From an archaeon (lineage in GTDB: Archaea; Iainarchaeota; Iainarchaeia; Iainarchaeales; Iainarchaeaceae), in NCBI GenBank assembly GCA_035289625.1, contig DATDWP010000021.1, positions 16,053 to 80,052 on the forward strand: DNA of 64,000 bases, written 5' to 3'. Each line of letters starts with the position of its first letter. The first letter of the stretch is position 1. The notes below the pieces were generated by a model, which searched no databases, was not told where the DNA came from, and saw only the letters and a program-made list of their open reading frames with translations. This document shows, in pieces, positions 24,908 to 50,974 of the stretch. Position numbers and translations under genes: made by a program.

Positions 24908-26416
24908 TCAGTACGCTTTTGCGAATAGTACGCGCCTTTTTGCATTTGTCCCCATGAAAATGCACTTTCCCGGAGATTGTTTTTGATCAAATGGGATGCA
25001 GCGCGAACTAACCCCATATTTTTCCTTTATTTTCATTTCATGGCCAGGGTCTTCGCAAAAATATGCAAGCACCATCTTTTTTTGTGAAATCCCTTTCTCA
25101 AATTCTTTGAGTGAATTTGCCTGCACAATATTTTCATCAAGGAACTTTTTTGCCTTTGAAAACATATCAGAGTGCATCTCTTCTAGGATTTGTGGAATCC
25201 TTTTCACAACATCTTTTTCTTTGACAAATTCCTTTTTCCCGCTATCCCTTCTAACAACTACAACATGCCCTTTTTCAATGTCCTTTGGCCCTATTTCGAT
25301 TCGCAAGGGAATCCCTTTCAATTCCCAATCATTGAATTTCCAACCAGTGCTATATTGCTCCCTATCATCTAAAATAGCCCTAAATTCTTGAAGTTTCTTT
25401 TCCATCTCTTTTGCCTTTTTGAGAACTTCTGTTTTTGTTTTTTCAAAAAGCACAGGAACAATTACCGCTTTATTTTTTGCAATGCGCGGCGGAAGAACTA
25501 ACCCTTTATCATCCCCGTGCACCATCACAATTGCGCCAAGCAACCTGGTGCTAAATCCCCAACTAGATTGCCAAGGCAGCTGCTCATTTTTTTTCTCATC
25601 CGTAAATTTTATACCAAAAGATTTTGCAAACCCCTGGCCCAAATTATGGGATGTTCCCATCTGCAAGGCCCTTCCATCCGGCATTAGCGCTTCAATTGTT
25701 GTAGTGTAAAGGGCACCTGCAAATTTTTCCGCTTCGGTTTTCTGCCCAGAAATTACAGGGATTGCAAGAAGCCCTTCAATCATCTTCTTGTACTCATCTA
25801 AAAACATCCGAACTTCCTTATCGCATTCCTCTTTAGTGGTGTATACACAATGGCCTTCCTGCCACAAAAACTCGCGCGTGCGCAAAAAAAGCTTTGTCTG
25901 CTTGACTTCCCACCTCAACACATTGCACCACTGATTTATGCGAAGCGGCAGATCGCGCCACGAGCGCACCCATTTTGAAAAAGAATCATAAATAATTGTT
26001 TCCGAGGTCGGGCGTATTGCCACTTTTTCTTCATCTTTATCATCGGAAGCAACCCAGGCAAGTTCGGGGGCAAATCCTTTTGCGTGCTCGGCTTCCTTTT
26101 CAAAAAAGCTCTTCGGGATAAGGAGCGGAAAGTAGGCATTCTGCACTCCGTGGCTTTCAATCACACGGTTAAAATAGCTCTGAATTGCTTCCCAAATTGC
26201 ATAACCGTTTGGCCGGATTACCATAAAGCCGCGCGTTGGGGCATAATCCGCTAGATTTGCCTTGAGCACTACCTGATTGTACCATTCGACAAAATCCGCG
26301 TCCTTTTTTACGGTAATTCCCAAAAGGTTCTCATCGGCCACAAAATCACTTAAATAGTAAAATATAGAGGAAATAAAAGGGTTTGGACTGATTTGCCTAT
26401 CGCTATTTCCTTGCAA
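24908..26416 (-). CDS. proS: Prolyl-tRNA synthetase, archaeal/eukaryotic-type class II
   Basis: 502 aa. Class II core motifs and a C-terminal Zn-binding-like domain with Cys/His. Architecture typical of archaeal ProRS. Confidence 0.8.
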   Translation of the reverse strand: MQGNSDRQISPNPFISSIFYYLSDFVADENLLGITVKKDADFVEWYNQVVLKANLADYAPTRGFMVIRPNGYAIWEAIQSYFNRVIESHGVQNAYFPLLIPKSFFEKEAEHAKGFAPELAWVASDDKDEEKVAIRPTSETIIYDSFSKWVRSWRDLPLRINQWCNVLRWEVKQTKLFLRTREFLWQEGHCVYTTKEECDKEVRMFLDEYKKMIEGLLAIPVISGQKTEAEKFAGALYTTTIEALMPDGRALQMGTSHNLGQGFAKSFGIKFTDEKKNEQLPWQSSWGFSTRLLGAIVMVHGDDKGLVLPPRIAKNKAVIVPVLFEKTKTEVLKKAKEMEKKLQEFRAILDDREQYSTGWKFNDWELKGIPLRIEIGPKDIEKGHVVVVRRDSGKKEFVKEKDVVKRIPQILEEMHSDMFSKAKKFLDENIVQANSLKEFEKGISQKKMVLAYFCEDPGHEMKIKEKYGVSSRCIPFDQKQSPGKCIFMGTNAKRRVLFAKAY

Positions 26417-27266
26417 AGTTAGCTAGTATCTTCTCCCTGTATGCACTTGCTGCCTGCGGGTTTTTCATACAAGTGAATTGTATGTCGCATTTTATATCCA
26501 TTATATCATTGAGTGATTTTAGTTCAGAACTGAGAAATGAATCGCGTTTTTTGAAAAAATCCCGTAGTTTTCTGACTATATTTTCAGGATAATTGACCTG
26601 TATTATGTGATCCCCGATAACATTGACATCGACATTGGATGGGTAAATGGCCGATTTTGCCTTCCCTACCTTTCCTCCAATTGAGCGGTAATTTGAAATG
26701 GCAACATCATTTATCGGAAAGCCTGCAGGACACACAAAAGTTGACTTGATGCCCTTGTTTATAATAGATTTCCAGAGCGTCATTTCATTCCCATAATTTA
26801 TCTGAAACCACCAATGAATATTATTGTAAGAAATGCATGATTTTGGCTCATCTTTGCCTATATTTTCTGCACAGTATAGCAGCATATCTGTCCAGAAATT
26901 ATCAAGTTCGAAAAGTGACTTTAACCTATATTGCCCATAATCACCTTCCAAAAATTCCCTTGCAAAAACTTTTGAATTTGCACGCGTATTATATGAGACC
27001 GAAAGAGAATCAAAAAATTTCTTAGAGTCAAAAATCCACTTCTTTGAAATTTCATACTCTTTGGATTCGTTCCTGAAAAGAACCCCTTCATCAACTAGCA
27101 TGGTTGCAGCTTTTCTTATCCCCTGAAACGAGACCCTTGAAGAAAATTTTTGGGCAATCTTCCTGTGCATATTTGCAAGCGAGAGCGGGTGCTCTTTTGA
27201 TAAAATCTGGACAAGCTGATTTTTCACAGTGTCTTTTTTTGAACTCTCCTGAAGATAATCCACCAT
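26403..27266 (-). CDS. Hypothetical protein, possible N-terminal winged-helix; overlaps proS start by 14 nt
   Basis: 287 aa. N-terminal LVQILSKEHPLSLANMHRKIAQKFSSRVSFQGIRKAATMLVDEGVL is wHTH-like. The remainder is unassigned. Confidence 0.35.
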   Translation of the reverse strand: MVDYLQESSKKDTVKNQLVQILSKEHPLSLANMHRKIAQKFSSRVSFQGIRKAATMLVDEGVLFRNESKEYEISKKWIFDSKKFFDSLSVSYNTRANSKVFAREFLEGDYGQYRLKSLFELDNFWTDMLLYCAENIGKDEPKSCISYNNIHWWFQINYGNEMTLWKSIINKGIKSTFVCPAGFPINDVAISNYRSIGGKVGKAKSAIYPSNVDVNVIGDHIIQVNYPENIVRKLRDFFKKRDSFLSSELKSLNDIMDIKCDIQFTCMKNPQAASAYREKILANFARK

Positions 27267-28696: not shown

Positions 28697-30304
28697 TCAA
28701 ATTTCTTTGAACTGCTCGCGCAGTTTCATCTCCCTTCTCTTGCGATTGTACCCCAGCGCGAATTTGTGCACAGCATCACGCACGGACCTGATAAATAACA
28801 TCATGCGGGAGTTCTTGTCAAATTGTTTAGGCTCATCAAAACCCGGCAGATAGATTTCCTCGTTCTTTTTTGCAAGCGCAATTATCGGGATTTTTAACCC
28901 CAGTTCTCTTAGAGCGTCAAGGCTAGCATTTAATTGGCCAGCTCCGCCATCAATAATTATGAGCGAAGGGAACTGCGCACTCTCTTGCCGGAGCCTTGAG
29001 TATCTTCTGCTAACAATTTCTTTCATTGATGCAAAATCATCGTTTTTGCCCTGAACTGTTTTGATCTTGAACTTGCGGTACTCTTTTTTATCAGGTTTTC
29101 CGTTTGTAAATCGCACCATTGCCCCAACCACGTGGTCATAGTTAAGGTTTGAAACATCAAAGCACTCGATAATTGAAGGTATATCAGGTAAATTCAGAGC
29201 ATCTTTTATAAGAGCAAGAACAGAACCTTCACCAATATTTAGCACTGCATTTTTTTGTGCCATATTAACAAGGCCGAGTTTTTCGCCCCTTTTAGGATAT
29301 ATCAATGAGACATATGTCCCTTTTATTTTTGAGAGGTATGCTTCAACTACTTCGCGCTCGCTCTCCTCTGCCCAGAATTTTTCACTTACAAGTATTTCAT
29401 TTGGAGGTGTGTGGGTTGAATAATAGCGCGTTATGAATTCTTCAAACAATCCTTCGTGGTAATCAAAGGTGAATTCCTTTTTTCCCGATATTACACCGCG
29501 CGAAATTGTAAACATTTCCACAATACACTTCGGTTCATTTTTAACAAGTGCCAAAACATCCTGGTCATATCGCTTTACAAGTTCAACTTTCTGGCGCTCA
29601 TCAAGATTCTCTATTGCCTCTATTTGGTGTTTTTTTTCAAGCGCGCGCTCAAACTTTAACTCTTTTGAAGCGATTTGCATTTCATCTTTTAATTTTTCAA
29701 TAACTCCGCTACGTTCCCCTTTCAAAAAATCATGAACGCCTTGCACCTGTTCTAAATATTGCTCTTGCGATACATTCCCAATGCAAGGAGCAGTACAGAG
29801 CCCAATGTGATAATTAAGGCACTCTTTTTTTGGCAAAATCCTGCAGGTCCTGATTTTGTATAGTTGCACTGCAAGATTTAGAAGCTGAACCCTAGCAAAT
29901 CCATCAACATATGGCCCAAAATACTTTCCATCAGGAGTAACTTTTCTAGTGGAGAGTATGCGCGGAAATTTTTCTGCAGTCAATTTGATGTATGCAAAAG
30001 TTTTGGAATCCTTTAGGTCAATATTGTATTTTGGGGAGTGCTTTTTTATCATATTATTTTCCAAAAGCAGCGCTTCCACCTCATTATCAACAGCAACAAA
30101 TTCTATATTTGCAATGCGCAAAACCATCAGGGCAATTCGCGGATAATGGTTTTTATTCGTAAAATAGCTAGATACCCGTTTTTTCAAATTTTTCGCTTTA
30201 CCAATATAAATTATTTCATTTTGCAAATCCCTAAAAAAATACACGCCCGGTTCTTGCGGAATTTTACTAAAATCAACTTCCCCCTTTTCCCCAACCTCTA
30301 TCAT
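28697..30304 (-). CDS. uvrC: Excinuclease ABC subunit C
   Basis: N-terminal GIY-YIG (GVYFFRDLQNEIIYIGKAKNLKKRVSSYF), UvrBC-interaction region, C-terminal RNase H-like and HhH regions. 535 aa. Overlaps the uvrA stop by 4 nt. Confidence 0.85.
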   Translation of the reverse strand: MIEVGEKGEVDFSKIPQEPGVYFFRDLQNEIIYIGKAKNLKKRVSSYFTNKNHYPRIALMVLRIANIEFVAVDNEVEALLLENNMIKKHSPKYNIDLKDSKTFAYIKLTAEKFPRILSTRKVTPDGKYFGPYVDGFARVQLLNLAVQLYKIRTCRILPKKECLNYHIGLCTAPCIGNVSQEQYLEQVQGVHDFLKGERSGVIEKLKDEMQIASKELKFERALEKKHQIEAIENLDERQKVELVKRYDQDVLALVKNEPKCIVEMFTISRGVISGKKEFTFDYHEGLFEEFITRYYSTHTPPNEILVSEKFWAEESEREVVEAYLSKIKGTYVSLIYPKRGEKLGLVNMAQKNAVLNIGEGSVLALIKDALNLPDIPSIIECFDVSNLNYDHVVGAMVRFTNGKPDKKEYRKFKIKTVQGKNDDFASMKEIVSRRYSRLRQESAQFPSLIIIDGGAGQLNASLDALRELGLKIPIIALAKKNEEIYLPGFDEPKQFDKNSRMMLFIRSVRDAVHKFALGYNRKRREMKLREQFKEI

Positions 30305-33183
30305 TCCATTACCTTTTTCAAAAACTGCCCGGTGTATGAGGAAGCTACCTGCAAAACTTGTTCGGGAGTCCCTTTTGCAATAAGCCTTCCCCCTCCGTCC
30401 CCGCCTTCTGGCCCAAGATCTATTATATAATCAGATGATTTTATCACATCAAGGTTGTGCTCTATTACATAAACGCTATTCCCCTTATCCACAAGCCGAT
30501 TTAGTACTGCAATCAATTTGCGCGTATCTTCAAAGTGCAACCCGGTGGTTGGTTCATCTAGCATGTAAACAGTATTGCCCTTCTTTTGCTTTGCTAATTC
30601 GCGCGTAATTTTTATTCGCTGCGATTCTCCCCCAGAAAGAGTAGTCGAACTCTGCCCAAGCTTAATATAGCCAAGCCCCACATCAACTAGTGTTTCAAGT
30701 TTTCTTCTAATCGATGAGTGGTTTTCAAAAAATGGTAATGCTTCCTCGGCGCTCATTTGCAAAACCTCTGCAATGTTTTTGCCTTTGTATAATATTTCAA
30801 GGGTTTGCTTGTTGTATCTTTTCCCCTTGCACTCCGAGCACTCAACATATACATCCGGCAAAAAATTCATTTCAATTTTAATTAGCCCGTCACCAAAGCA
30901 CGCTTCGCACCTGCCGCCCTTTACATTAAATGAAAATCTCCCTTCTTTATACCCCCGCGATTTTGATTCGCGTGTGAGCGCAAAAATTCCCCTCACATCA
31001 TCAAATATTTTGGTATAAGTAGCCGGGTTTGAGCGCGGGGTTCTTCCAATGGGGTCTTGGTCTATTACAATTATATTTTTCACATTATCAGGAACATGGA
31101 CAAAGCTATGCTTTCCCACCCTCTCTGACCCTTGGTCAAAATGCTTCTTTAGGTACGGAACAAGGGTTTGGTTCATTAAAGTGGATTTTCCGGAACCCGA
31201 AACCCCTGTAATTGTGCACAGAACTTCAGTTGGCAAATCTACTGTGAGCCCGCGCAAATTGTTTTGCGCAGCACCAATTATTCGTATATGGCTTGGGGCT
31301 TTTCTTCTTGTCTGCGGAACCTCTATTTTTTTCTCCCCGGATAAATACTGGCCGGTTAAGCTTTTTGGATTTTCAGCAATCTGCTCCGGTGTTCCTCTCG
31401 CGCACACATGGCCTCCGTGAATTCCGGCTCCGGGGCCCATATCAATTATATAATCAGCAGCGCGGATAGTGTCCTCATCGTGTTCAACTACAATTAAAGT
31501 ATTCCCCACATCTCGCAACCTGTGAAGGGTGTTGATTAATTTTTCATTATCCCTCTGGTGCAAACCAATTGACGGCTCATCTAGAATATAGAGAACACCC
31601 ATTAGGTTTGAACCAATTTGAGTTGCAAGCCTAATTCTTTGAGCTTCGCCACCGGAGAGTGTTCTTGCGCTTCGCGAAAGCGTAAGATATCCAAGGCCTA
31701 CATTTTTTAAAAACCCCAATCTCTCACGGATTTCCTTTAGCACCTGCGTTGCAATGAACTTCTCCTTTTCCCCCAATCTCTCATCTAGCTTTGCAAAAAA
31801 ATCAACTGAATGGAGTATACTCATATCAGTGACATCAATTATTGATTTGGAATCAATTTTTACAGCCAAGACATTTTCTTTAAGCCTTTTTCCTTTGCAC
31901 ACTTCGCAAGGTTCAGCTAGCATGAATTTTTCAATTTCCTCTTTCCTCCATTCAGATTCTGTTTGTTTATAGAGCCGCATTGCCTGCGGAATAACACCTT
32001 CAAATCCATGCTCCATTCGCATGTTCATTCCGACATGCCACTTTCCTGAAATTGGCTCTTTTGAACCATACAGAAGAACTTTTAGTTGTTTTTCGGAAAA
32101 CTTTTTTATCGGAGTAAAAACATCAAACCCATACTTTTTCCCAACAGCAGCTATTTGCTGTGACCTCCATGTAAGATCTGCTTTTGAATAAAGGGCAACT
32201 GCCCCGTCCATTATGCTCTTTGATTTATCCGCAATCACAAGTTCTGGTGAGAGCTGCATAATATCGCCAAGCCCGTGGCATGCACTGCACGCACCGAATG
32301 GGGAATTGAAAGAGAACATTCGAGGTTCAAGCGGCTCAAAGACAACTTCTGGATGGTTTGGGCATGCACCGAATGTAGAATAGAGGGTTTCGCCTTCAGC
32401 CCGCGAGAGTTCTTTTAAGGTCTTTTCTTCACTTGGGGCGTTACTTAACTTCTGCGCTTTTTTTGCATCAATTACAATCATTCTCCCGTTTCCCACATGA
32501 AGCGCTTGCTCAACTGCTTCTGAAACCCTCTGGCGCTCATCTTCATTAATTGTAATAGTATCTATTATTGCCTCAATCCAGTGCTTTTCATATCTTGTGA
32601 GTTTTATTTCTTCCTTAATATTTTCTGATTGATATATTTGTTCATCTACTCTGATTTTTGTAAACCCGTCCTTTTTCAAATCATCAAAAACCTGCTCATA
32701 TGTCCCCTTAGCACCCCTTACCACCGGCGCTAAAATCATCAGTGTCTTGCCATTTTCAGACATTACAAGATTTGTAATGTTCTCTGCCGTCTGAGGTTTT
32801 ATTTTGCTCTCACACTTCGGGCAGTGCAAAACACCAATTCTTGCAAAAAGCAGCCTCAAATAATCATAAATTTCAGTAACGGTGCCAACAGTTGATCTTG
32901 GGTTTTTTGAAGTTGTTTTTTGTTCAATTGAAATTGCAGGAGAGAGCCCGTCAATTGAATCAACATCAGGTTTATTCATAAGCCCCAAAAATTGCCGCGC
33001 GTAAGCTGAGAGGCTCTCAACATATCTTCTCTGCCCCTCCGCATAAATAGTATCAAATGCCAAAGTGGATTTTCCGGAGCCCGAGAGCCCGGTTATTACA
33101 ATGAGTTTATCGCGCGGAAGCTCTACATCAATATTTTTCAGATTGTGCTCTCGCGCGCCCTTTACAGCAATACGATCTTGCAT
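30301..33183 (-). CDS. uvrA: Excinuclease ABC subunit A
   Basis: 960 aa. Two ABC modules (GLSGSGKST and GVSGSGKST; LSGGEAQRI and LSGGESQRI) with Zn-finger Cys pairs (CPKC, CEVCKG, CEAC). Confidence 0.9.
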
Positions 33184-33233
33184 ACGTTCCCTCTATTCGC
33201 AACAATTAAAATTTGCTTCTATCACGAGGACTT

Positions 33234-33812
33234 TTACCTCGGTTTCTGGGCAATGATTTTTATAACTTTTTTCCCTTTTGCGTATTCTCTTTGTGCATAT
33301 TTCGAGCCGCTTGCCTCAATTTCAGTCGGCTTGAATTCCCTTGCAATCACTTTAAAACCGGCATTACGCAAAAGTGGGATTATTTCCCGATCAATGTAGC
33401 GGTGCTCAAATGTGGTTAGCAGGAACTTTCCGCCCGGCACGAGTATTCTTTTGACTTCATTTATATAGCCCGGCAATGTTCTTTGAATCTCTGAAAAAGT
33501 CTGACCTGCAATGGCCGCTCTTTTTCGAATATCAGCCAGATTTGTTACATCTTTGCCATACGGGACATGATGGATGAAAAAATCAGCAATCACTGCAGGA
33601 ACTGAGGCTGATTCTATCTTTTCCGTCTCAGCCAATACATTTCCTTTGACATAGCCCATATTACTTGGCAGTTTATATCTTGGCTTTTGCAAATCCACAA
33701 CTTTCACAGTACCCGGAAGATTTTTTTTCAAGAGCCTTTGTGCAAATTTAAAAGCCCTCCCCTTTGTCGGCCCTTCCCCGAACGATACCATTTTTATTTT
33801 AGGTTTTTTCAC
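33234..33812 (-). CDS. Class I SAM-methyltransferase-like protein with degenerate motif I, embedded between uvrB and uvrA
   Basis: 192 aa. [12 protein letters not shown] in place of the GxGxG motif, motif-II-like [10 protein letters not shown] and motif-III-like [12 protein letters not shown]. Its stop overlaps the uvrB stop region (ATGA coupling). Confidence 0.4.
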
Positions 33813-35788
33813 TTAGAATCCCCCTTTTTCGATTTTGACTGAGCATAAGCCTTTGAATCTTGCAAGAGCGCATACTCCTGTTTTAGGGCTTCGAGCTGGT
33901 CTCTGAATGCAATTGCGTTTTCAAAGTCAAGGTTCTCAGCACTTGTTCTCATTGCAGCGTCCAATTCAGCAATTCTTTTTTCAACATCCTGCCTGCCCAT
34001 GTGCTTTAACCCTTTTATTTCACTCTTCTTTTGTGCAAGCGCCTTTACAACCGGCATTGGAGTGATCCCATTTTCTTTGTTGAATTTCTCCTGATCCCCT
34101 CTTCTTTTTTTTGTAATTGCAACTGCGCCTACTATTGATTTTGTAATTACATCAGCATAGAGAATTACATGGCCATTTAGATTTCTTGCCGCTCGCCCAA
34201 TTGTTTGTATAAGGCTTCTCTCATCCCGCAAAAACCCTTCCTTGTCAGCATCCAAAATACAAATGAGGCTAACCTCAGGCAAATCAAGGCCTTCTCGCAA
34301 AAGATTTATCCCTACAAGAACATCAAATTCTCCAGCGCGAAGCTGCCTTATTAGTTCAATTCTCTGCAAGCTCTCAATTTCCGAGTGCATATACCTTACT
34401 TTGACATTTTCCTTTGCCAAATAATCAGTTAAGTCCTCAGCCATTCTTTTTGTTAGCGTTGTAATTAAAACGCGCTCCCCTCTTTGCACGGTTTTTCCGA
34501 TCTCTTCAAGCATGTCCTTGACCTGGTTTTTTATAGGACGAACTTCAACTTGCGGGTCAAGTAGCCCGGTTGGCCTTATGATCAGATTCACAATTTGCCC
34601 GGAACTTTTCATTTCATATTCAGCAGGGGTTGCAGAAACAAACACAACATGGTTGAAGTACTTTTCAAATTCATCAAATTTTAAAGGACGGTTATCAAAA
34701 GCGCACGGCAGCCTAAATCCAAAATCCACAAGATTTTTTTTGCGCGCAAAGTCCCCATTATACATTGCCCGTGATTGCGGAATTGTCTGGTGTGATTCAT
34801 CAACTATTAGCAAAAAATCATTCGGGAAATAATCCAAAAGAACATAAGGCGGTTTTCCTGGGGGCCTTCCGTCAAAATGGCGCGAATAATTCTCAATCCC
34901 GTTGCAATATCCCATTTCCTGAATCATTTCAAGATCATATTTAACCCTTTGTGAAAGCCTTTGCGCTTCTAGCGGCCCAAGAGTCGGAAGATGATCTTGC
35001 AGCTCCTGTTTTATTGCCCCCATTGCTCGCTGTTGCTTTTCAATTGGAACAACATATTGGCGTGCCGGAAAAACCCTTGCCTCATCAAGAGTGCTAATTG
35101 TAGTTGCAGAGAGCGGATCAATTTCTGAAATTTTACTAACAACACTTGAACCGAGTTCAATGCGAATGATATTTTTCTCAGAAGCAGGAATTATATCAAT
35201 TGTATCCCCTCTTACCCTAAACCTTCCGGGTTCTAATACCTGGTCATTTCTCTCATATTGCATTTCAATTAGGCTCTTTATGATATTTGAGCGCGTAACT
35301 TCTTTTCCCTTTTCAATTACAAGCGAGAGGTTGGAAAAATCATCAGGGTTCCCCAAACCATAAATGCACGAAATCGAGGCAACCACTATTACATCATCGC
35401 GCGACAGAAGGCTTGAAACTGCATGCAGGCGCATCTTTTCAATCTGCTCATTTACAGTTGCTTCCTTTTCAATGTAGAGATCAGAAGTTGGCATGTAACT
35501 CTCCGGCTGGTAATAGTCATAGTAGGAAATGAAATATTCCACCCTGTTTTTGGGAAATAATTCCTTTAGCTCCGTGTAGAGCTGCGCTGCAAGGGTTTTA
35601 TTGTGCGCTAGTACTAGGGTTGGCTTTTGCACCTTTTGTATTAAATTTGCCATTACAAAAGTCTTTCCACTTCCAGTAATTCCAAGCAATGTCTGGCACG
35701 GGTATTTGGAATAGCCTTCGTATAACTCTCTAATTGCCTCTGGCTGGCCGCCTGCTGGCTTAAAGGGAGAAACAAGTTCGAATCCCAT
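33809..35788 (-). CDS. uvrB: Excinuclease ABC subunit B
   Basis: 659 aa. Helicase motif I GITGSGKT, DEAD-like DESHQT, C-terminal UVR domain (coiled-coil tail). Confidence 0.9.
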   Translation of the reverse strand: MGFELVSPFKPAGGQPEAIRELYEGYSKYPCQTLLGITGSGKTFVMANLIQKVQKPTLVLAHNKTLAAQLYTELKELFPKNRVEYFISYYDYYQPESYMPTSDLYIEKEATVNEQIEKMRLHAVSSLLSRDDVIVVASISCIYGLGNPDDFSNLSLVIEKGKEVTRSNIIKSLIEMQYERNDQVLEPGRFRVRGDTIDIIPASEKNIIRIELGSSVVSKISEIDPLSATTISTLDEARVFPARQYVVPIEKQQRAMGAIKQELQDHLPTLGPLEAQRLSQRVKYDLEMIQEMGYCNGIENYSRHFDGRPPGKPPYVLLDYFPNDFLLIVDESHQTIPQSRAMYNGDFARKKNLVDFGFRLPCAFDNRPLKFDEFEKYFNHVVFVSATPAEYEMKSSGQIVNLIIRPTGLLDPQVEVRPIKNQVKDMLEEIGKTVQRGERVLITTLTKRMAEDLTDYLAKENVKVRYMHSEIESLQRIELIRQLRAGEFDVLVGINLLREGLDLPEVSLICILDADKEGFLRDERSLIQTIGRAARNLNGHVILYADVITKSIVGAVAITKKRRGDQEKFNKENGITPMPVVKALAQKKSEIKGLKHMGRQDVEKRIAELDAAMRTSAENLDFENAIAFRDQLEALKQEYALLQDSKAYAQSKSKKGDSK

Positions 35789-35957
35789 AACACTCCTCTA
35801 CACCGCGCGGCTTTTTAAATAATGGCAGGCCTTGTTGCCCGTGCGAACAAAAAAATAAAAATACTGTCCTTTTTTGTCTAAACCTTTCCTATTTTTTTAG
35901 ACTTGAATGAATTAGGGCTTCGCTGCGTTTATATACCACTTTATTGTTCATTATAGC

Positions 35958-36683
35958 ATGGCCTTTATAGAGAGAGTTCCAACCTATATTCCCGGTTTTG
36001 ACAATTTTTTAGAAGGGGGTTTTCCAAAAGGCTCCTTGATTTTAGTTTCAGGAACCCCCGGATCCGGAAAGAGCAATTTTTGCGCCCAACTATTATACTA
36101 CAATGCTCTCAAGGGCAAAAAATGCCTCTACCTAGACCTTGAGCAGGACATGGGAGACCTTGAACTTCAAATGAAAATGTTTGGTTGGGACACATCAGCG
36201 CTTGATAATCTCAAAATATATACAATAGAGAGCTCAAACCCCCAGATAGTTGAAAAAGTCATAAAAGAAATTGAAAGCAAGCGCTATGATATAATTGTTC
36301 TTGATTCAATTGATTCAATCACAACAAACCCGGCTTCAGTTGAAGAAATACAGCAACAATTTCGAGACCGCGTGCCGCTTATAACAATCCCTGCACTTTT
36401 GGACCAGGCAACACTAACACGCCTTAAAATAAAAAAAATATTCAATGCAATAAAGAGCGTAAAATCCACAGCAATAATTACAAGTGAAAGAGTTGAAGGC
36501 TCAATGGGGCTTAGCAGGGACACAGTTTCAGAATTTCTCTGTGACGGAGTAATACTTCTATCCTCAACTGCAATCGGCAAAAAAAGGGCACGCTCAATAG
36601 AAATCAGCAAAATGCGCCACACCGATACACCCGGCGGCAGATACGAACTTGAAATCACCAAAAAAGGCCTTAACGTATTGTGA
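35958..36683 (+). CDS. KaiC/RadA-like single-domain RecA-superfamily ATPase (COG0467-type)
   Basis: Walker A VSGTPGSGKSNFCAQ, Walker B IIVLDSI. 241 aa. Confidence 0.7.
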   Translation: MAFIERVPTYIPGFDNFLEGGFPKGSLILVSGTPGSGKSNFCAQLLYYNALKGKKCLYLDLEQDMGDLELQMKMFGWDTSALDNLKIYTIESSNPQIVEKVIKEIESKRYDIIVLDSIDSITTNPASVEEIQQQFRDRVPLITIPALLDQATLTRLKIKKIFNAIKSVKSTAIITSERVEGSMGLSRDTVSEFLCDGVILLSSTAIGKKRARSIEISKMRHTDTPGGRYELEITKKGLNVL

Positions 36684-36686
36684 TTT

Positions 36687-37835
36687 ATGCCTCGCAACCT
36701 TGGAATAAAAAACGATTTAGTAAATTGGTTTGTAAAAAATGTTGCAATCCCAAACCTCATGCGCCTTGACATACCCGGCTTTGTAATTGTCAAGCAAAAT
36801 TATGAAGGGCGGGAAATAGAGCAGCGCAACATTTTCTTTTCCGAGCTGCAGATAGCAGGTTTTGAGAGCGCGCTTGTGAAAAATTTCGGCGAGCGCGGCA
36901 AAAAAATCGCCTACACAATGCTCACAAATTCCACATATGCATATTGCCACTCATACGGAATCCCACAGCTAAAAGACGGAGAAAAGGCAATTGATGAATT
37001 CTTCTCATTCTACACAGCATTCATGGGGGTTACATGGGGAGAATTTTTGAACCTTGATTATGATCTCAAAACCAAAATACTCCAAGTTAATTTGGGCGAC
37101 CATATAGTGTGCCGCAAAAATGGGCTCGGGTATATGTTTAGCTCCGGAATATTTGCAGGCGGCTGGCAGCACTTAATGCAAGACCCTACAATACAGGCAA
37201 GCCAAATTGAATGCGTTGGAAAAGGAGATAAGAGCTGCAGAGTAATAGCCGGGCCAATTGAATATCTCAAAAAACAAAAATATGAAGTAATAGAGGCAAC
37301 AGGCACCAGAACATATTCAACAGACATTAGCTATTGGGAGATGAACAAATCAAGGCCCATGCAATACTCCAAAGCATCACTTCGAGAACTAATAGCCGCA
37401 GGATTTTTCAAATTCGAAAAAAACAAACTCACATTCCACGAGGATAGGTACTGCTTTACAGGAATTGAACTACTCTATGTATTTGAAGAGACCGCAGCAA
37501 AAGACCCAAAGGTTAGCAAACTTCTTTTTGAAACAACTTTTGAACAAGGCAAAAAAATCGCCCTTGCAGAAAAAACCAACGAATATTCAACCTTCATCCC
37601 CGATATTCTTTCAGCCTTCGGGTATGGCGACACGCTCATTTCACACAACAATTCAAAATTTATAATTGAAACAAACTATTTTCCATACCTTGAAACCTAC
37701 GACCAAATAAATTACCAATATTTCAAAGGGCTTGTCTCAGGACTTCTTAGCGGCTTTTTGGGAAAAGAAATAATTCTCAAAAACCATAGCACAAACGTAT
37801 CGAACGGGTATTTGCAGCTAGTGCTTTTGGAATAG
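36687..37835 (+). CDS. Hypothetical protein with V4R-like Cys motif region, 4 nt downstream of the KaiC-like gene
   Basis: 382 aa. GDHIVCRKNGLGYMFSSGIFAGGWQHLM...IECVGKGDKSCRVIAG resembles the V4R (4-vinyl reductase-type) small-molecule-binding signature. The C-terminal ~180 aa are unassigned. Confidence 0.35.
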   Translation: MPRNLGIKNDLVNWFVKNVAIPNLMRLDIPGFVIVKQNYEGREIEQRNIFFSELQIAGFESALVKNFGERGKKIAYTMLTNSTYAYCHSYGIPQLKDGEKAIDEFFSFYTAFMGVTWGEFLNLDYDLKTKILQVNLGDHIVCRKNGLGYMFSSGIFAGGWQHLMQDPTIQASQIECVGKGDKSCRVIAGPIEYLKKQKYEVIEATGTRTYSTDISYWEMNKSRPMQYSKASLRELIAAGFFKFEKNKLTFHEDRYCFTGIELLYVFEETAAKDPKVSKLLFETTFEQGKKIALAEKTNEYSTFIPDILSAFGYGDTLISHNNSKFIIETNYFPYLETYDQINYQYFKGLVSGLLSGFLGKEIILKNHSTNVSNGYLQLVLLE

Positions 37836-37882: not shown

Positions 37883-38614
37883 TTGTTGTTTATTTATTTT
37901 ATGAGAAGCAAACCTTTGAATGGCCCATTCTCCAGATTTTTTTATGAAAGTTTAAGGAATGAAAGAATAAAGCCAAGAAGATTGAAAAACCCCAAAGGAA
38001 TTGAGAGGTTTACATTTTCAGTTTCTACGCCCAGGCAAAGATGGGCAAGAGATTTATACTATGACAAAAGAGCATTGGCAAATCTTGACCATGCAGTAGG
38101 TTTAGTGCCAAATGTAATGCCTGCAATGGTGCAAGCTTTTGGCTACACAATTGAGCATGAAAAAGTCCATGCAGGGGATTCAAAATACCAGGCTTTGCCC
38201 GTCAATGAAATAAAAAAAATTTCCAATTTGAATAACACAGGGCATAGGGCCCAAGCACTTGTTGAACAGGTTGCAAATAGGGGCGTTATTGCAAAAATGC
38301 TTACAGACAGTAAAATAAAATCCCTGCAACACCCATCAGCCAAAAAAGTAATTGCCGATAAGCTTTCGTGGTATATTATACAAAGCCTTATTCAAAGCGG
38401 CGAATTTCGAAGAATGGTAAAGAGCGGATTAAATGCATCTTTGCCAAAAACCAAACAAGAGGCCAGAGCAAGAATACAAATTATTTCACTATACCTAAAA
38501 AAACTTTTTCCGAACCTGGAAAATGAACACCTAGAGGAGATAATAAAAGTCACTAGTCGCAGGTTTGCTTCCCTAATTGAGGTTGGGGCCAAAAACAGCA
38601 GACAAGGCACTTGA
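37883..38614 (+). CDS. Hypothetical protein (243 aa); true start may be an internal Met
   Basis: Open frame with ordinary codon use. No motif recognised. Confidence 0.35.
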   Translation: MLFIYFMRSKPLNGPFSRFFYESLRNERIKPRRLKNPKGIERFTFSVSTPRQRWARDLYYDKRALANLDHAVGLVPNVMPAMVQAFGYTIEHEKVHAGDSKYQALPVNEIKKISNLNNTGHRAQALVEQVANRGVIAKMLTDSKIKSLQHPSAKKVIADKLSWYIIQSLIQSGEFRRMVKSGLNASLPKTKQEARARIQIISLYLKKLFPNLENEHLEEIIKVTSRRFASLIEVGAKNSRQGT

Positions 38615-38623
38615 TAATAAAAG

Positions 38624-38717
38624 TGGGAGAGCCCAGATTTGAACTGGGGTCGACACCAAATTGGAAGCGTTTACCTCTCCCCAAGGTGCCATACTAACCA
38701 AGCTATACTACTCCCCC
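38624..38717 (-). tRNA. Intron-containing tRNA, anticodon most likely UGG (Pro); ~20-nt intron 3' of the anticodon loop; no encoded CCA
   Basis: Reverse complement reads GGGGGAG-TA-GTAT...GGCAC-CTTGGG-[intron]-GTGTC-GA-CCCAG-TTCAAAT-CTGGG-CTCTCCC-A. Acceptor stem 7/7 (one G-U), canonical T-arm, 94 nt. T-rich tract follows on the minus strand. Confidence 0.6.
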
Positions 38718-39352: not shown

Positions 39353-39589
39353 GTGATCAAGGGCAAGTACGAAATAATTTTTATGCGCCATGCAATATTG
39401 CGTGCAATTGAGCGCAATATCACCCCCGATGTTGTGGAAAATGCCGTAATGACAGGTTCATTCCACAGATTTGGAAAAAACAGGATGAAAATAATAAAAA
39501 AGCTCAGAAAAATGCAAATAGTTTGCATAGACGAAATAATTGGAAACACAATAAAAATTGTTTCAATTGCAAGGAGGGCAAGAAGATGA
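39353..39589 (+). CDS. DUF4258-like small toxin-type protein
   Basis: 78 aa. HAILRAIERNITPDVVENAVMTG...IVCIDEIIGNTIKIVSI matches the DUF4258 pattern. GTG start. Confidence 0.5.
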   Translation: MIKGKYEIIFMRHAILRAIERNITPDVVENAVMTGSFHRFGKNRMKIIKKLRKMQIVCIDEIIGNTIKIVSIARRARR

Positions 39590-39888
39590 AATGCACAAAA
39601 TGCTCAGGTAAAATGGCCGAAAAAAAAGACATAACAAATGACGGTGTTGAATACACATATTTTGAGTGTAAAAATTGTGGGGAGCAGATAGTCAACATGA
39701 AACAACTCCATGAAATGGCGGCAAGATATGGGGAAATGAAAAAATATACAGCAAAACTCTCTAAATGGGGGGAGAGCATAGGACTTAGGATCCCAAAAGA
39801 GCTAGCCAAAGAATATGGACTTGAAAAAGATACGGAAGTGTCTTTAATACCGGAAAAAAAAGCAATAAGGATAATAACAACAAAATAA
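39586..39888 (+). CDS. Zn-ribbon plus AbrB/SpoVT/MazE-type swapped-hairpin antitoxin-like protein
   Basis: MKCTKCSG...CKNCG (CxxC x2), then LSKWGESIGLRIPKELAKEYGL (SpoVT/AbrB motif). ATG preceded by AAGGAGGG. Overlaps the upstream stop by 4 nt. Confidence 0.55.
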   Translation: MKCTKCSGKMAEKKDITNDGVEYTYFECKNCGEQIVNMKQLHEMAARYGEMKKYTAKLSKWGESIGLRIPKELAKEYGLEKDTEVSLIPEKKAIRIITTK

Positions 39889-42580: not shown

Positions 42581-42700
42581 TGGGATTGCCCGGATTTGAA
42601 CCGGGGTCGTAAGCTCATTTGAAGGCATTCTTGCAAAAGCACGTTTTGCCGAAAAACCCTCCCAAAGCTTATATGCTAGACCAGGCTACACCACAATCCC
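42581..42700 (-). tRNA. Intron-containing tRNA (~42-nt intron), anticodon most likely GGG (Pro) if the intron sits at the canonical 37/38 position
   Basis: Reverse complement GGGATTG-TG-GTGT-AGCCTGGTCTAGC-ATAT-AAGCT-TTGGGA[intron]G-AGCTT-ACGA-CCCGG-TTCAAAT-CCGGG-CAATCCC-A. Perfect 7-bp acceptor stem and canonical T-arm. Oligo-T tract immediately 3' on the minus strand. Confidence 0.55.
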
Positions 42701-50071: not shown

Positions 50072-50974
50072 TCATATTTTTGCGATCCATTTAGGGTTTG
50101 ATTTTCTTTCAAGCTTGTGATAAAAAACTGAATTTAGGAAAATACCTAAAAAAATTAATGCAATAAACACTGTACTCTGCGAAGTAATTGCCGATATCAT
50201 AGAGAGACTAAAAAAACTTGTCTTGTGGATTGAGAGCTGATGCAAAATATACCCATTATTGTAAAAGAAGAGCAAAATTGCAAAAAGAATGACAGGAATA
50301 GATGCAATATAGAAATTAAAAAATACTATCTGCAAACTCGCAGTTGCAATTAATACCACCGAACAGAGCAAAACTGATTTTTTCTCCCCAAGTAAAATTG
50401 GAAGAGTGGAATTTCCAGCACGCTTATCATGAATTATATCTCTTAAATCCCCAATTATTGCCCTTACTGTGTAGAGCATTAATATCATAAGAGAGAGTGC
50501 AACAACTTCAAATACAAATATTTCATTTGAAAAAAAGGTTAATACGTAAAGAAAATAAAATATCTGTATGATTCCTCTTACTAAAGAACTTGCAAGCCCT
50601 AGTAGAGGATTGAACTTCTTTTCCAGATAAATAAAGCAAAAAACTATAGATAGAATTGCAAACAGTGCAGGTAGGACTCCGTTTACTGCGCCTATAATAA
50701 TTCCTATTAGCATGAAAGGCAGTGATGCAAGAAAAGTTATGTTGCCTCTATACGCATATTTCTTCTTTGCCTCAAGTGCAATGTTAAAAAAACACCAAAG
50801 GCTCAAAAGTCCGGAAATGAAAAACAAATCATTTAATTCAAATACGAGATTTTTTGTAACCATGAATTTAGCAAGATAGCCAAGCAGAACTAAATCTACC
50901 CATGAGTAAGGGCGGACATTGAAAAGTAAATGCCGCAGGCTTTTGCCCAAAGAACTGAACTGAAATACCCCCAT
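50072..50974 (-). CDS. UbiA-family prenyltransferase (DGGGP-synthase-like)
   Basis: Polytopic, 300 aa. Asp-rich motif GDLRDIIHDKRAG characteristic of the UbiA superfamily. Confidence 0.55.
   Translation of the reverse strand: MGVFQFSSLGKSLRHLLFNVRPYSWVDLVLLGYLAKFMVTKNLVFELNDLFFISGLLSLWCFFNIALEAKKKYAYRGNITFLASLPFMLIGIIIGAVNGVLPALFAILSIVFCFIYLEKKFNPLLGLASSLVRGIIQIFYFLYVLTFFSNEIFVFEVVALSLMILMLYTVRAIIGDLRDIIHDKRAGNSTLPILLGEKKSVLLCSVVLIATASLQIVFFNFYIASIPVILFAILLFFYNNGYILHQLSIHKTSFFSLSMISAITSQSTVFIALIFLGIFLNSVFYHKLERKSNPKWIAKI

What the first reader, a model, noticed from the sequence alone, without database searches (positions are those of the whole stretch)
35958..37835. KaiC/RadA-like ATPase paired with a V4R-like Cys-motif protein
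A single-domain RecA-superfamily ATPase (COG0467-type, Walker A GTPGSGKS) is followed 4 nt later by a 382-aa protein containing a V4R-like signature (IECVGKGDKSCRVIAG), a domain usually implicated in small-molecule sensing, plus about 180 aa of unassigned sequence. The pairing suggests an ATPase-driven sensory or regulatory module that is not a characterised system.
Basis: partly seen in the sequence, partly recalled or inferred. Interest (0 to 1): 0.5.

Follow-up and report, generated by a model that had tools for sequence, protein, structure and literature searches.

The report
KaiC ATPase paired with double-V4R protein
A small ATPase and a ligand-binding partner built from two V4R/Bet3-type domains form a conserved gene pair in tiny DPANN archaea; in most lineages, though not in this window, the pair sits among membrane-lipid synthesis genes, so it may control or assist archaeal lipid making.

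The parts
35928..35935 (+). TTTATATA, an archaeal TATA-box-like element about 23 nt upstream of the ATG of A. It suggests a leaderless A-B transcript.
   Evidence: Read directly from the sequence. Function is inferred, not tested.
35958..36683 (+). Gene A: single-domain KaiC-type (RecA-superfamily) ATPase, 241 aa.
   Evidence: Pfam KaiC E 6.6e-47, covering residues 7-240. The best PDB matches align to the CI domain of KaiC (residues 18-246, E ~1e-30 to 1e-33), then PH0186 and PH0284. No NCBIfam equivalog cutoff is reached.
36051..36074 (+). Walker A, GTPGSGKS (residues 32-39).
   Evidence: G..G.GK is at least 90% conserved in 45 KaiC-cluster proteins from the B-bearing loci.
36132..36149 (+). 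LDLEQD, containing the putative catalytic Glu62.
   Evidence: The Glu is conserved in at least 60% of partner KaiCs. The catalytic assignment rests on analogy with RecA/KaiC.
36288..36308 (+). Walker B, DIIVLDS (Asp116).
   Evidence: DS is at least 90% conserved.
36687..37835 (+). Gene B: soluble 382-aa tandem V4R/Bet3-fold protein.
36759..37274 (+). Repeat 1 (about residues 25-196): beta-hairpin, three helices, and a V4R beta/alpha/beta core with a metal motif.
   Evidence: DSSP elements. The Pfam V4R hit covers residues 151-190. Profile positions 149-195 align to MopR 158-203.
37110..37112 (+). Cys142, the first ligand of the putative Zn site (HIVCRKNG).
   Evidence: Cys in 111 of 125 family members.
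37203..37238 (+). Q173-x2-C176-x7-C184, which aligns with MopR E178-x2-C181-x7-C189.
   Evidence: Conservation is C176 107/125, C184 112/125, and Q173 as Q in 75 and H in 20. That these MopR residues bind Zn is from my own knowledge of the MopR/PoxR structures. PMC10933270 confirms Zn-Cys sites in PoxR and Thor-TRAPPC3.
37368..37832 (+). Repeat 2 (about residues 228-382): the same fold without the Cys motif.
   Evidence: hhalign of N half against C half gives probability 89%, E 2.3e-6 over 104 columns, with R47~R254 and E60~E267. The order of secondary-structure elements matches. Profile positions 220-286 align to MopR 11-80, its XylR_N part.

Best explanation
A and B form a conserved bicistronic module of DPANN-type archaea. 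B is a soluble internal pseudo-dimer of two PoxR/MopR-like V4R (Bet3-fold) modules. The first is stabilised by a Cys3(+Gln/His) metal site. Like other members of this fold, B offers a buried cavity for a hydrophobic ligand. A is a catalytically competent single-domain KaiC-type ATPase, presumably a hexamer. I propose that B binds a geranylgeranyl-bearing intermediate of ether-lipid synthesis (GGPP, GGGP or DGGGP/archaeol) and that ligand occupancy gates the ATPase or oligomeric state of A. The module would then act as a post-translational switch that tunes or organises the lipid enzymes GGGPS, DGGGPS and GGR. This would be a split, RecA-type analogue of the V4R-sensor/AAA+ ATPase logic of XylR, DmpR and PoxR. 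Shown here: the genes, the fold, the duplication, the motif conservation, the A-B linkage and the linkage to lipid genes. Inferred: the A-B contact, the ligand identity, and the direction and target of the signal.
For: The pair is conserved. KaiC is immediately adjacent to B in 28 of 40 non-redundant loci and within two genes in 33 of 40. Gaps are mostly 29 nt or less, or the genes overlap. Most exceptions are contig edges. Starting instead from the KaiC side, P0172 again leads to B.
The duplication evidence is. The Cys triad is conserved in about 88% of 125 members. ATPase motifs are conserved in the partner KaiCs.
Unbiased clustering of neighbours gives UbiA in 16, GGR-like in 14 and PcrB in 10 of 40 loci. 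A lipid gene lies within 6 kb in 31 of 40 loci and immediately adjacent in 26 of 40. At least six different gene orders occur across Aenigmatarchaeota, Altiarchaeota, Micrarchaeota, Iainarchaeota and Marsarchaeota.
The GGR neighbours pass the TIGR02032 cutoff, and the PcrB neighbours hit GGGP-synthase families best. Even in the window's clade, L044 has GGR plus a cis-prenyltransferase 2.2 kb downstream.
The lineages that carry B are those reported to encode lipid synthesis (PMC12892359). Fold relatives bind hydrophobic ligands: phenols in PoxR/MopR and palmitate in Bet3. BchJ is a proposed pathway chaperone (PMC7242693).
Against: In the window itself, and in its nearest relatives L001, L004 and L006, no lipid gene is adjacent. 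The neighbours are uvrB and an orphan gene. Only a weak UbiA-like gene lies 12 kb away.
One close KaiC orthologue (P0171, 76% identity) has no B within 5 kb, and one B locus on a 1.1-Mb contig (L018) has no KaiC within 6 kb.
The Cys motif is lost in most PcrB-linked members, so the metal site is not essential. No physical A-B interaction, ligand or output was tested. The loci are related genomes, so the counts overstate the number of independent events. The UbiA and PcrB neighbours are below NCBIfam equivalog cutoffs. My rough NJ tree does not show the B-linked KaiCs as a clean clade.
Confidence: 0.4

Rival explanations
1. Lipid carrier or chaperone. B holds hydrophobic geranylgeranyl intermediates and hands them between the soluble GGGPS (PcrB), the membrane DGGGPS (UbiA) and GGR. 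The KaiC ATPase powers loading, release or extraction from the membrane. Under this reading the module is a stoichiometric pathway component, not a regulator.
For: B often overlaps, or lies 0-13 nt from, PcrB, GGR or UbiA on the same strand, as expected for co-translated pathway subunits. Neither protein has a DNA-binding domain. Among fold relatives, BchJ is proposed to be a pathway chaperone, Bet3 carries palmitate and BcsD acts in polymer handling.
Against: To my own knowledge, the characterised single-domain KaiC-like ATPases (ArlH, GvpD, CirA) are regulators rather than small-molecule chaperone motors. B has no amphipathic or TM membrane anchor. The window's clade keeps the pair away from any lipid gene.
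Confidence: 0.25
2. Generic KaiC-centred signalling pair whose V4R input senses some other small molecule. The lipid-gene neighbourhood in other lineages is then a lineage-specific accident or reflects only co-regulation, and in this genome the module has nothing to do with lipids.
For: The window, L001, L004 and L006 show only the bare pair with unrelated, variable neighbours. V4R domains sense diverse ligands. KaiC-like ATPases have been proposed as general archaeal signalling hubs (cited in PMC5847659).
Against: Lipid genes lie within 6 kb in 31 of 40 loci, in at least six gene orders across several phyla. I estimate about 8% would be expected by chance. L044, 61% identical to the window's B, still has GGR and a prenyltransferase nearby.
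Confidence: 0.2
3. B is an enzyme, possibly with A as a kinase-like partner, that fills a gap in DPANN lipid synthesis. One candidate gap is the supply of glycerol-1-phosphate in lineages that lost G1P dehydrogenase. Another is a modification of the isoprenoid chain.
For: Polar residues are invariant in all members even where the Cys are lost: R47, N220, R254, E53, E60 and E267. The order KaiC-B-PcrB-(GGR)-HAD recurs in Micrarchaeota and Iainarchaeota, lineages reported to have lost G1PDH (PMC12892359). The V4R superfamily includes the ATC hydrolase domain (PMC5847659).
Against: R47/R254 and E60/E267 occupy equivalent positions in the two repeats, and the Arg is shared with the MopR XylR_N segment. 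They therefore look like fold determinants rather than a catalytic site. No catalytic precedent exists for PoxR-type V4R domains. This reading is pure inference.
Confidence: 0.07
4. DNA-repair accessory: a RadA/RadB-like ATPase working with the divergently transcribed uvrB-uvrA-uvrC cluster.
For: uvrB lies 169 nt upstream on the opposite strand, followed by uvrA and uvrC. A has weak similarity to RecA, RadA and RadB.
Against: The uvr adjacency is seen only in contigs of the same population. It is absent in L001, L004, L006, L044 and all distant loci. RadA and RadB models score far below cutoff (45 bits against 403, and 42 against 172), whereas KaiC is matched end to end.
Confidence: 0.03

Closest known systems
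Sensor (A) domains of the sigma54 activators PoxR, MopR, DmpR and XylR (XylR_N + V4R)
   Different: There the sensor is fused to an AAA+ sigma54-interaction domain and an HTH, and it dimerises between chains. Here two sensor modules are fused in one chain, there is no AAA+ or HTH domain, and the ATPase is a separate RecA-type KaiC protein. The hosts are bacteria degrading aromatics versus DPANN archaea.
Archaeal single-domain KaiC-like ATPases (PH0186, PH0284, SSO2452, ArlH/FlaH, GvpD, CirA)
   Same: One KaiC/RecA domain of about 240 aa with Walker A/B and a catalytic Glu. These are thought to act as ATP-dependent switches that bind partner proteins (own knowledge; PMC5847659).
   Different: No NCBIfam equivalog cutoff is met: ArlH 64.6 bits against 215, thermo_KaiC_1 95 against 307. 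The partner is a tandem V4R protein, which I did not find described.
BchJ, the namesake of V4R ('4-vinyl reductase')
   Same: It is a V4R-fold protein of unclear role, proposed to be a chaperone of a pathway handling hydrophobic intermediates (PMC7242693). From my own memory, bchJ lies beside bchG (UbiA family) and bchP (GGR family) in purple-bacterial clusters, the same enzyme families that flank B.
   Different: BchJ has a single V4R domain, no KaiC partner, and acts in bacterial tetrapyrrole rather than archaeal ether-lipid metabolism. The bchEJG-bchP gene order was not verified here.
TRAPP Bet3/TRAPPC3-C6 family, including Asgard TRAPPC3
   Different: No sequence-level membership. There is no longin, roadblock or GTPase partner, and the context is metabolic rather than trafficking.

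Membership tests
KaiC domain family (Pfam PF06745) | Full-length match above the gathering score | tested here: met
   160.3 bits against 26.6, with residues 7-240 matching profile positions 1-226 of 231.
KaiC domain family (Pfam PF06745) | Walker A, Walker B and catalytic Glu present | tested here: met
   GTPGSGKS, DIIVLDS and E62 are present, and are conserved in the partner KaiCs.
Circadian KaiC (TIGR02655 / NF006799) | Double CI+CII domain protein of about 500 aa that reaches the equivalog cutoff | tested here: not met
   The protein is 241 aa with one domain. It scores 85.7 bits against 546 and 115.7 against 408. PDB alignments cover only CI residues 18-246.
Circadian KaiC (TIGR02655 / NF006799) | KaiB (and KaiA) partner genes | not tested
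   No recurrent KaiB-like cluster appeared among the neighbours. Singleton ORFs were not all annotated.
ArlH/FlaH archaellum ATPase | NCBIfam equivalog cutoff and an arl gene context | tested here: not met
   64.6 bits against 215. No arl genes occur in any locus.
RadA/RadB recombinases | Equivalog cutoffs | tested here: not met
   RadA(sms) 45.4 bits against 403, and RadB 42.3 against 172.
V4R domain (Pfam PF02830) | Match above the gathering score (31 bits) | tested here: not met
   The window protein scores 20.3 bits, E 5.8e-4. 39 of 125 relatives match at E<=0.01, best 3.2e-7.
V4R domain (Pfam PF02830) | V4R/Bet3 alpha-beta fold | tested here: met
V4R domain (Pfam PF02830) | Conserved Cys cluster (metal site) | tested here: met
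   C142, C176 and C184 are present in the window protein and in 107-112 of 125 relatives. They align to MopR C181 and C189. Metal binding itself cannot be tested here.
XylR/DmpR/PoxR-type NtrC activators | AAA+ sigma54-interaction domain and C-terminal HTH fused to the sensor | tested here: not met
   No such Pfam domains occur in B or A. B is entirely two sensor-like modules.
TRAPP Bet3 family | Sequence-level membership and TRAPP partner subunits | tested here: not met
Anti-phage defence systems (PADLOC) | Match of both components to a defence-system model | tested here: not met
   B has no hit. A has only a partial generic P-loop hit to mad8 (E 1.6e-9).

The most novel reading that the evidence does not exclude
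The KaiC plus tandem-V4R pair is a previously unrecognised accessory of archaeal ether-lipid biosynthesis. It would be an ATP-dependent sensor or carrier for geranylgeranyl intermediates, and so the first candidate post-translational control or hand-over device for archaeal membrane-lipid synthesis. It would also point to a general role of V4R proteins (including BchJ) alongside UbiA-type prenyltransferases and GGR-type reductases.
Probability: 0.4. Interest if true: 0.75.

Novelty: new variant of a known kind. Interest (0 to 1): 0.58.

Why it matters
To my knowledge, almost nothing is known about how archaea regulate or organise synthesis of their ether lipids, or about how genome-reduced DPANN archaea manage their membranes. 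A conserved ATPase/ligand-binder pair wired into PcrB, UbiA and GGR gene clusters gives a concrete, testable candidate. It also assigns a structure and context to a family of about 280 representative 'hypothetical' proteins, adds a defined input module to the proposed KaiC signalling hubs of archaea, and offers a fused pseudo-dimer relative of the V4R/Bet3 fold that underlies eukaryotic TRAPP.

Tried and rejected
- **First structure prediction.** AF2 with only 5 sequences gave pLDDT 47.5 and was unusable. I redid it with 22 sequences.
- **Locus searches that failed.** The search for related loci with the 125- and 22-sequence alignments failed for lack of a conserved peptide. A 14-sequence subset worked.
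- **Metagenome scan.** The scan with the window's clade gave only 3 loci, all redundant with ones already held.
- **afdb50 fold library.** Unavailable.
- **Makarova et al. 2017 (KaiC hubs).** Could not be retrieved by DOI, PMC id or PMID. Whether a KaiC-V4R link is mentioned there is unchecked.
- **Gene C (37883/37901..38614).** It has no Pfam, NCBIfam or PADLOC hit and no homologue next to B in other genomes. It also appears to have its own TATA-like box. I rejected it as part of the module.
- **DNA-repair, circadian-clock, archaellum and defence-system readings.** All rejected; see the membership tests.
- **Membrane anchoring of B.** No TM segment was found, and the N-terminal helix is not amphipathic.
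- **KaiC phylogeny.** The rough NJ tree was too poorly resolved to say whether B-linked KaiCs are monophyletic.
- **Sigma70 promoter and terminator scan.** Uninformative for an archaeon.

Full report
**Observation.** A is 35958..36683 (+), 241 aa. B is 36687..37835 (+), 382 aa. Three nucleotides separate the TGA of A from the ATG of B.

The window is archaeal. It has intron-containing tRNAs, an ATP-dependent DNA ligase and diphthamide synthase. NCBI labels B's protein 'MAG TPA: archaeon'. The closest named KaiC homologues are from 'Candidatus Diapherotrites'.

A TTTATATA element lies 23 nt upstream of A's ATG (35928-35935). A T-rich tract and a second TATA-like element follow B, ahead of the next gene. 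A-B therefore looks like a leaderless bicistronic unit. This is an inference.

**Gene A.** A matches Pfam KaiC end to end (E 6.6e-47). It reaches none of NCBIfam's equivalog cutoffs, whether for circadian KaiC, the thermo/arch KaiC groups, ArlH, RadA or RadB.

Its best solved relatives are KaiC proteins, aligned over their CI domain (residues 18-246). The Pyrococcus single-domain proteins PH0186 and PH0284 follow. Walker A (GTPGSGKS), Walker B (DIIVLDS), Glu62 and the C-terminal R/K-M-R motif are conserved in 45 KaiC-cluster proteins from the B-bearing loci. A is most likely an active ATPase.

**Gene B.** The only Pfam hit is V4R, below threshold (20.3 bits against 31; residues 151-190). Family-level evidence makes the assignment firm.
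- A profile search of 1.84 billion representatives finds 278 relatives, 136 of them at E<=1e-30. Almost all are 360-390 aa and match over their full length.
- 39 of 125 full-length members hit V4R, and 2 hit XylR_N.
- The family profile hits the MopR phenol-sensor domain at E 1.8e-5 in two pieces. Profile positions 149-195 align with MopR 158-203 (its E178-x2-C181-x7-C189 region). Profile positions 220-286 align with MopR 11-80 (its N-terminal XylR_N part).

The '180 aa of unassigned sequence' is a second copy of the same module.
- hhalign of the N half against the C half gives 89% probability, E 2.3e-6, over 104 columns.
- The order of secondary-structure elements repeats: hairpin, three helices, hairpin, helix, hairpin.

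Cys142, Cys176 and Cys184 are present in 111, 107 and 112 of 125 members. Gln173 (Q in 75, H in 20) sits where MopR has Glu178. The second repeat has no such motif.

The triad is partly or wholly lost in most PcrB-linked members, while R47, N220 and R254 never vary. The metal site therefore looks structural rather than catalytic. B has no predicted membrane segment.

PoxR and TRAPPC3 work as dimers with ligand cavities (PMC10933270). B is thus best seen as a covalently fused pseudo-dimer. This is an inference.

**Conservation of the pair.** Every close homologue of B with upstream sequence has the KaiC gene directly upstream. The same holds for distant homologues at 21-33% identity and for 31 loci from GTDB species representatives. 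Those representatives are Aenigmatarchaeota, Altiarchaeota, Micrarchaeota, Iainarchaeota and Marsarchaeota, plus two contigs labelled bacterial, which I suspect are mis-binned.

In 40 non-redundant loci, KaiC is the immediate neighbour of B in 28 and lies within two genes in 33. Most of the rest are contig ends. Six loci carry two tandem KaiC genes.

Starting from the KaiC side, P0172 (75% identical to A) again precedes a B gene. There are two exceptions. P0171 (76% identical to A) has no B within 5 kb. L018 has no KaiC within 6 kb of B.

**Unexpected context.** I clustered all ORFs within 6 kb of B without prior labels, then annotated the cluster representatives. After KaiC, the commonest neighbours are:

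| Neighbour family | Loci (of 40) | Note |
|---|---|---|
| UbiA-family prenyltransferase | 16 | |
| Geranylgeranyl-reductase-family flavoprotein | 14 | L008 and L044 pass the TIGR02032 cutoff |
| PcrB (GGGP-synthase family) | 10 | 9 of 10 lie 0-13 nt downstream of B |
| 277-aa winged-helix protein | 7 | |
| SAM methyltransferase | 5 | |
| HAD hydrolases | 4 + 4 | |

A lipid gene (UbiA, GGR, PcrB, GGPP synthase or a UbiA-like 276-aa protein) is within 6 kb in 31 of 40 loci and immediately adjacent to B in 26.

My rough expectation for a random gene in a genome of about 1000 genes with 5-8 such genes is about 8% and 1-2% respectively. This is an estimate, not a computation.

The arrangements differ:
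- KaiC>B>PcrB>(GGR>)HAD
- KaiC>KaiC>B>UbiA
- UbiA>GGR>B><KaiC
- KaiC>UbiA>B
- KaiC>B><MTase<UbiA-like
- GGPPS<KaiC>B><UbiA

The linkage has therefore survived repeated rearrangement. The lineages involved are the DPANN groups reported to encode lipid synthesis (PMC12892359).

**The window's own clade is the weak point.** The window, L001, L004 and L006 show only the bare pair among unrelated, variable neighbours. L044 (B 61% identical) has GGR and a cis-prenyltransferase 2.2 kb downstream.

The window holds a weak UbiA-like gene at 50072-50974 and a homologue of the 277-aa winged-helix protein at 26403-27266. Neither is close to the pair.

**Mechanism.**
- Shown: an ATPase with intact motifs; a two-module V4R-fold partner with a conserved metal motif; tight genetic coupling; and a neighbourhood of isoprenoid-lipid genes.
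- Inferred: B binds a geranylgeranyl-type ligand, and ligand occupancy controls the KaiC ATPase or oligomer, which in turn tunes or organises GGGPS, DGGGPS and GGR.

This mirrors XylR, DmpR and PoxR, where a V4R sensor gates a fused AAA+ ATPase. Here the ATPase is a separate, RecA-type protein and there is no DNA-binding output.

A nearly equal rival is a carrier or chaperone role. It fits the operon positions and the proposal that BchJ is a pathway chaperone (PMC7242693). From my own memory, bchJ also lies beside bchG (UbiA family) and bchP (GGR family). Less likely readings are an unrelated ligand, an enzymatic role, or DNA repair. Each is listed under the rival explanations with its evidence.

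**Novelty.** Sources name B 'hypothetical protein' or 'predicted hydrocarbon binding protein'. No Pfam or NCBIfam model covers it. Full-text searches found no paper containing both KaiC and geranylgeranylglyceryl. The three papers that mention both V4R and KaiC do not link them, judged from the passages I read in one and from titles and abstracts for the other two. The 2017 KaiC survey could not be read.

The parts are of known kinds. The fused double-V4R architecture, its obligate-looking KaiC partner and the lipid-cluster context appear to be new.

Noticed in passing
window 38623-38717 (-) and 42581-42700 (-): Two long tRNA genes that probably contain introns. ARAGORN calls a 95-nt tRNA-Pro(GGG). 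Rfam calls a 120-nt tRNA that ARAGORN misses, and Rfam at gathering threshold does not report the tRNA-Pro.
   Followed up: no
window 28697-35788 (-): A bacterial-type uvrC (535 aa), uvrA (960 aa) and uvrB (659 aa) cluster in an archaeal MAG. A 192-aa ORF (33234-33812) with no Pfam hit is wedged between uvrA and uvrB, and its start overlaps the end of uvrB by 4 nt.
   Followed up: partly
window 50072-50974 (-): A divergent UbiA-family prenyltransferase (Pfam 35 bits against a cutoff of 34.2). It is homologous (E 6.6e-32) to the 276-aa 'unknown' protein that sits beside a SAM methyltransferase next to B in L008, L020 and L025. It lies in a low-GC stretch (0.34).
   Followed up: partly
window 26403-27266 (-): A 287-aa protein with no Pfam hit. 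It is homologous (E 6.5e-42) to a 277-aa weakly FUR-like winged-helix family that recurs, often in 2-3 copies, near B in 7 of 40 loci. It could be a transcription factor associated with the lipid clusters.
   Followed up: partly
window 37883/37901-38614 (+): An orphan gene directly downstream of B with no family hit in Pfam, NCBIfam or PADLOC. It was seen only in contigs of the same population. Public gene callers start it at the ATG at 37901 (237 aa), not the TTG at 37883.
   Followed up: partly
L007 2-184: The 60-aa fragment upstream of B looks like an ScpA N-terminus (by eye) joined to the last ~13 residues of the KaiC partner (…YDLEIAGRGLVVL*). The sister contig L044 has an intact KaiC there. 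This is either an assembly chimera or a real deletion/fusion.
   Followed up: partly
L001 8276-10381 (also L002): A 701-aa tyrosine recombinase (Phage_integrase) interrupted by an intein with a LAGLIDADG endonuclease, three genes downstream of B in a relative. L046 also has an intein-bearing MCM.
   Followed up: no
L036 (whole locus, 8.6 kb): Several B-like fragments (179-354 aa, on both strands) and three KaiC copies are packed together with UbiA and GGR. This may be local duplication and decay of the module, or a misassembly.
   Followed up: no
loci L011, L025, L027-L032, L034, L035, L037, L038, L040-L042: The Cys triad of B is partly (CxSC) or fully lost in the PcrB-linked, the L034/L038 methyltransferase-linked, and some UbiA-linked (L041, L042) members. 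It is kept in most UbiA/GGR-linked members and in the window's clade. R47, N220 and R254 stay invariant.
   Followed up: partly
window 39353-39888 (+): A small possible toxin-antitoxin-like pair. A 78-aa ORF overlaps the start of a 121-aa protein that has an N-terminal Cys-rich (zinc-ribbon-like) segment and a C-terminal MazE/AbrB-type domain (Pfam E 5e-7).
   Followed up: no
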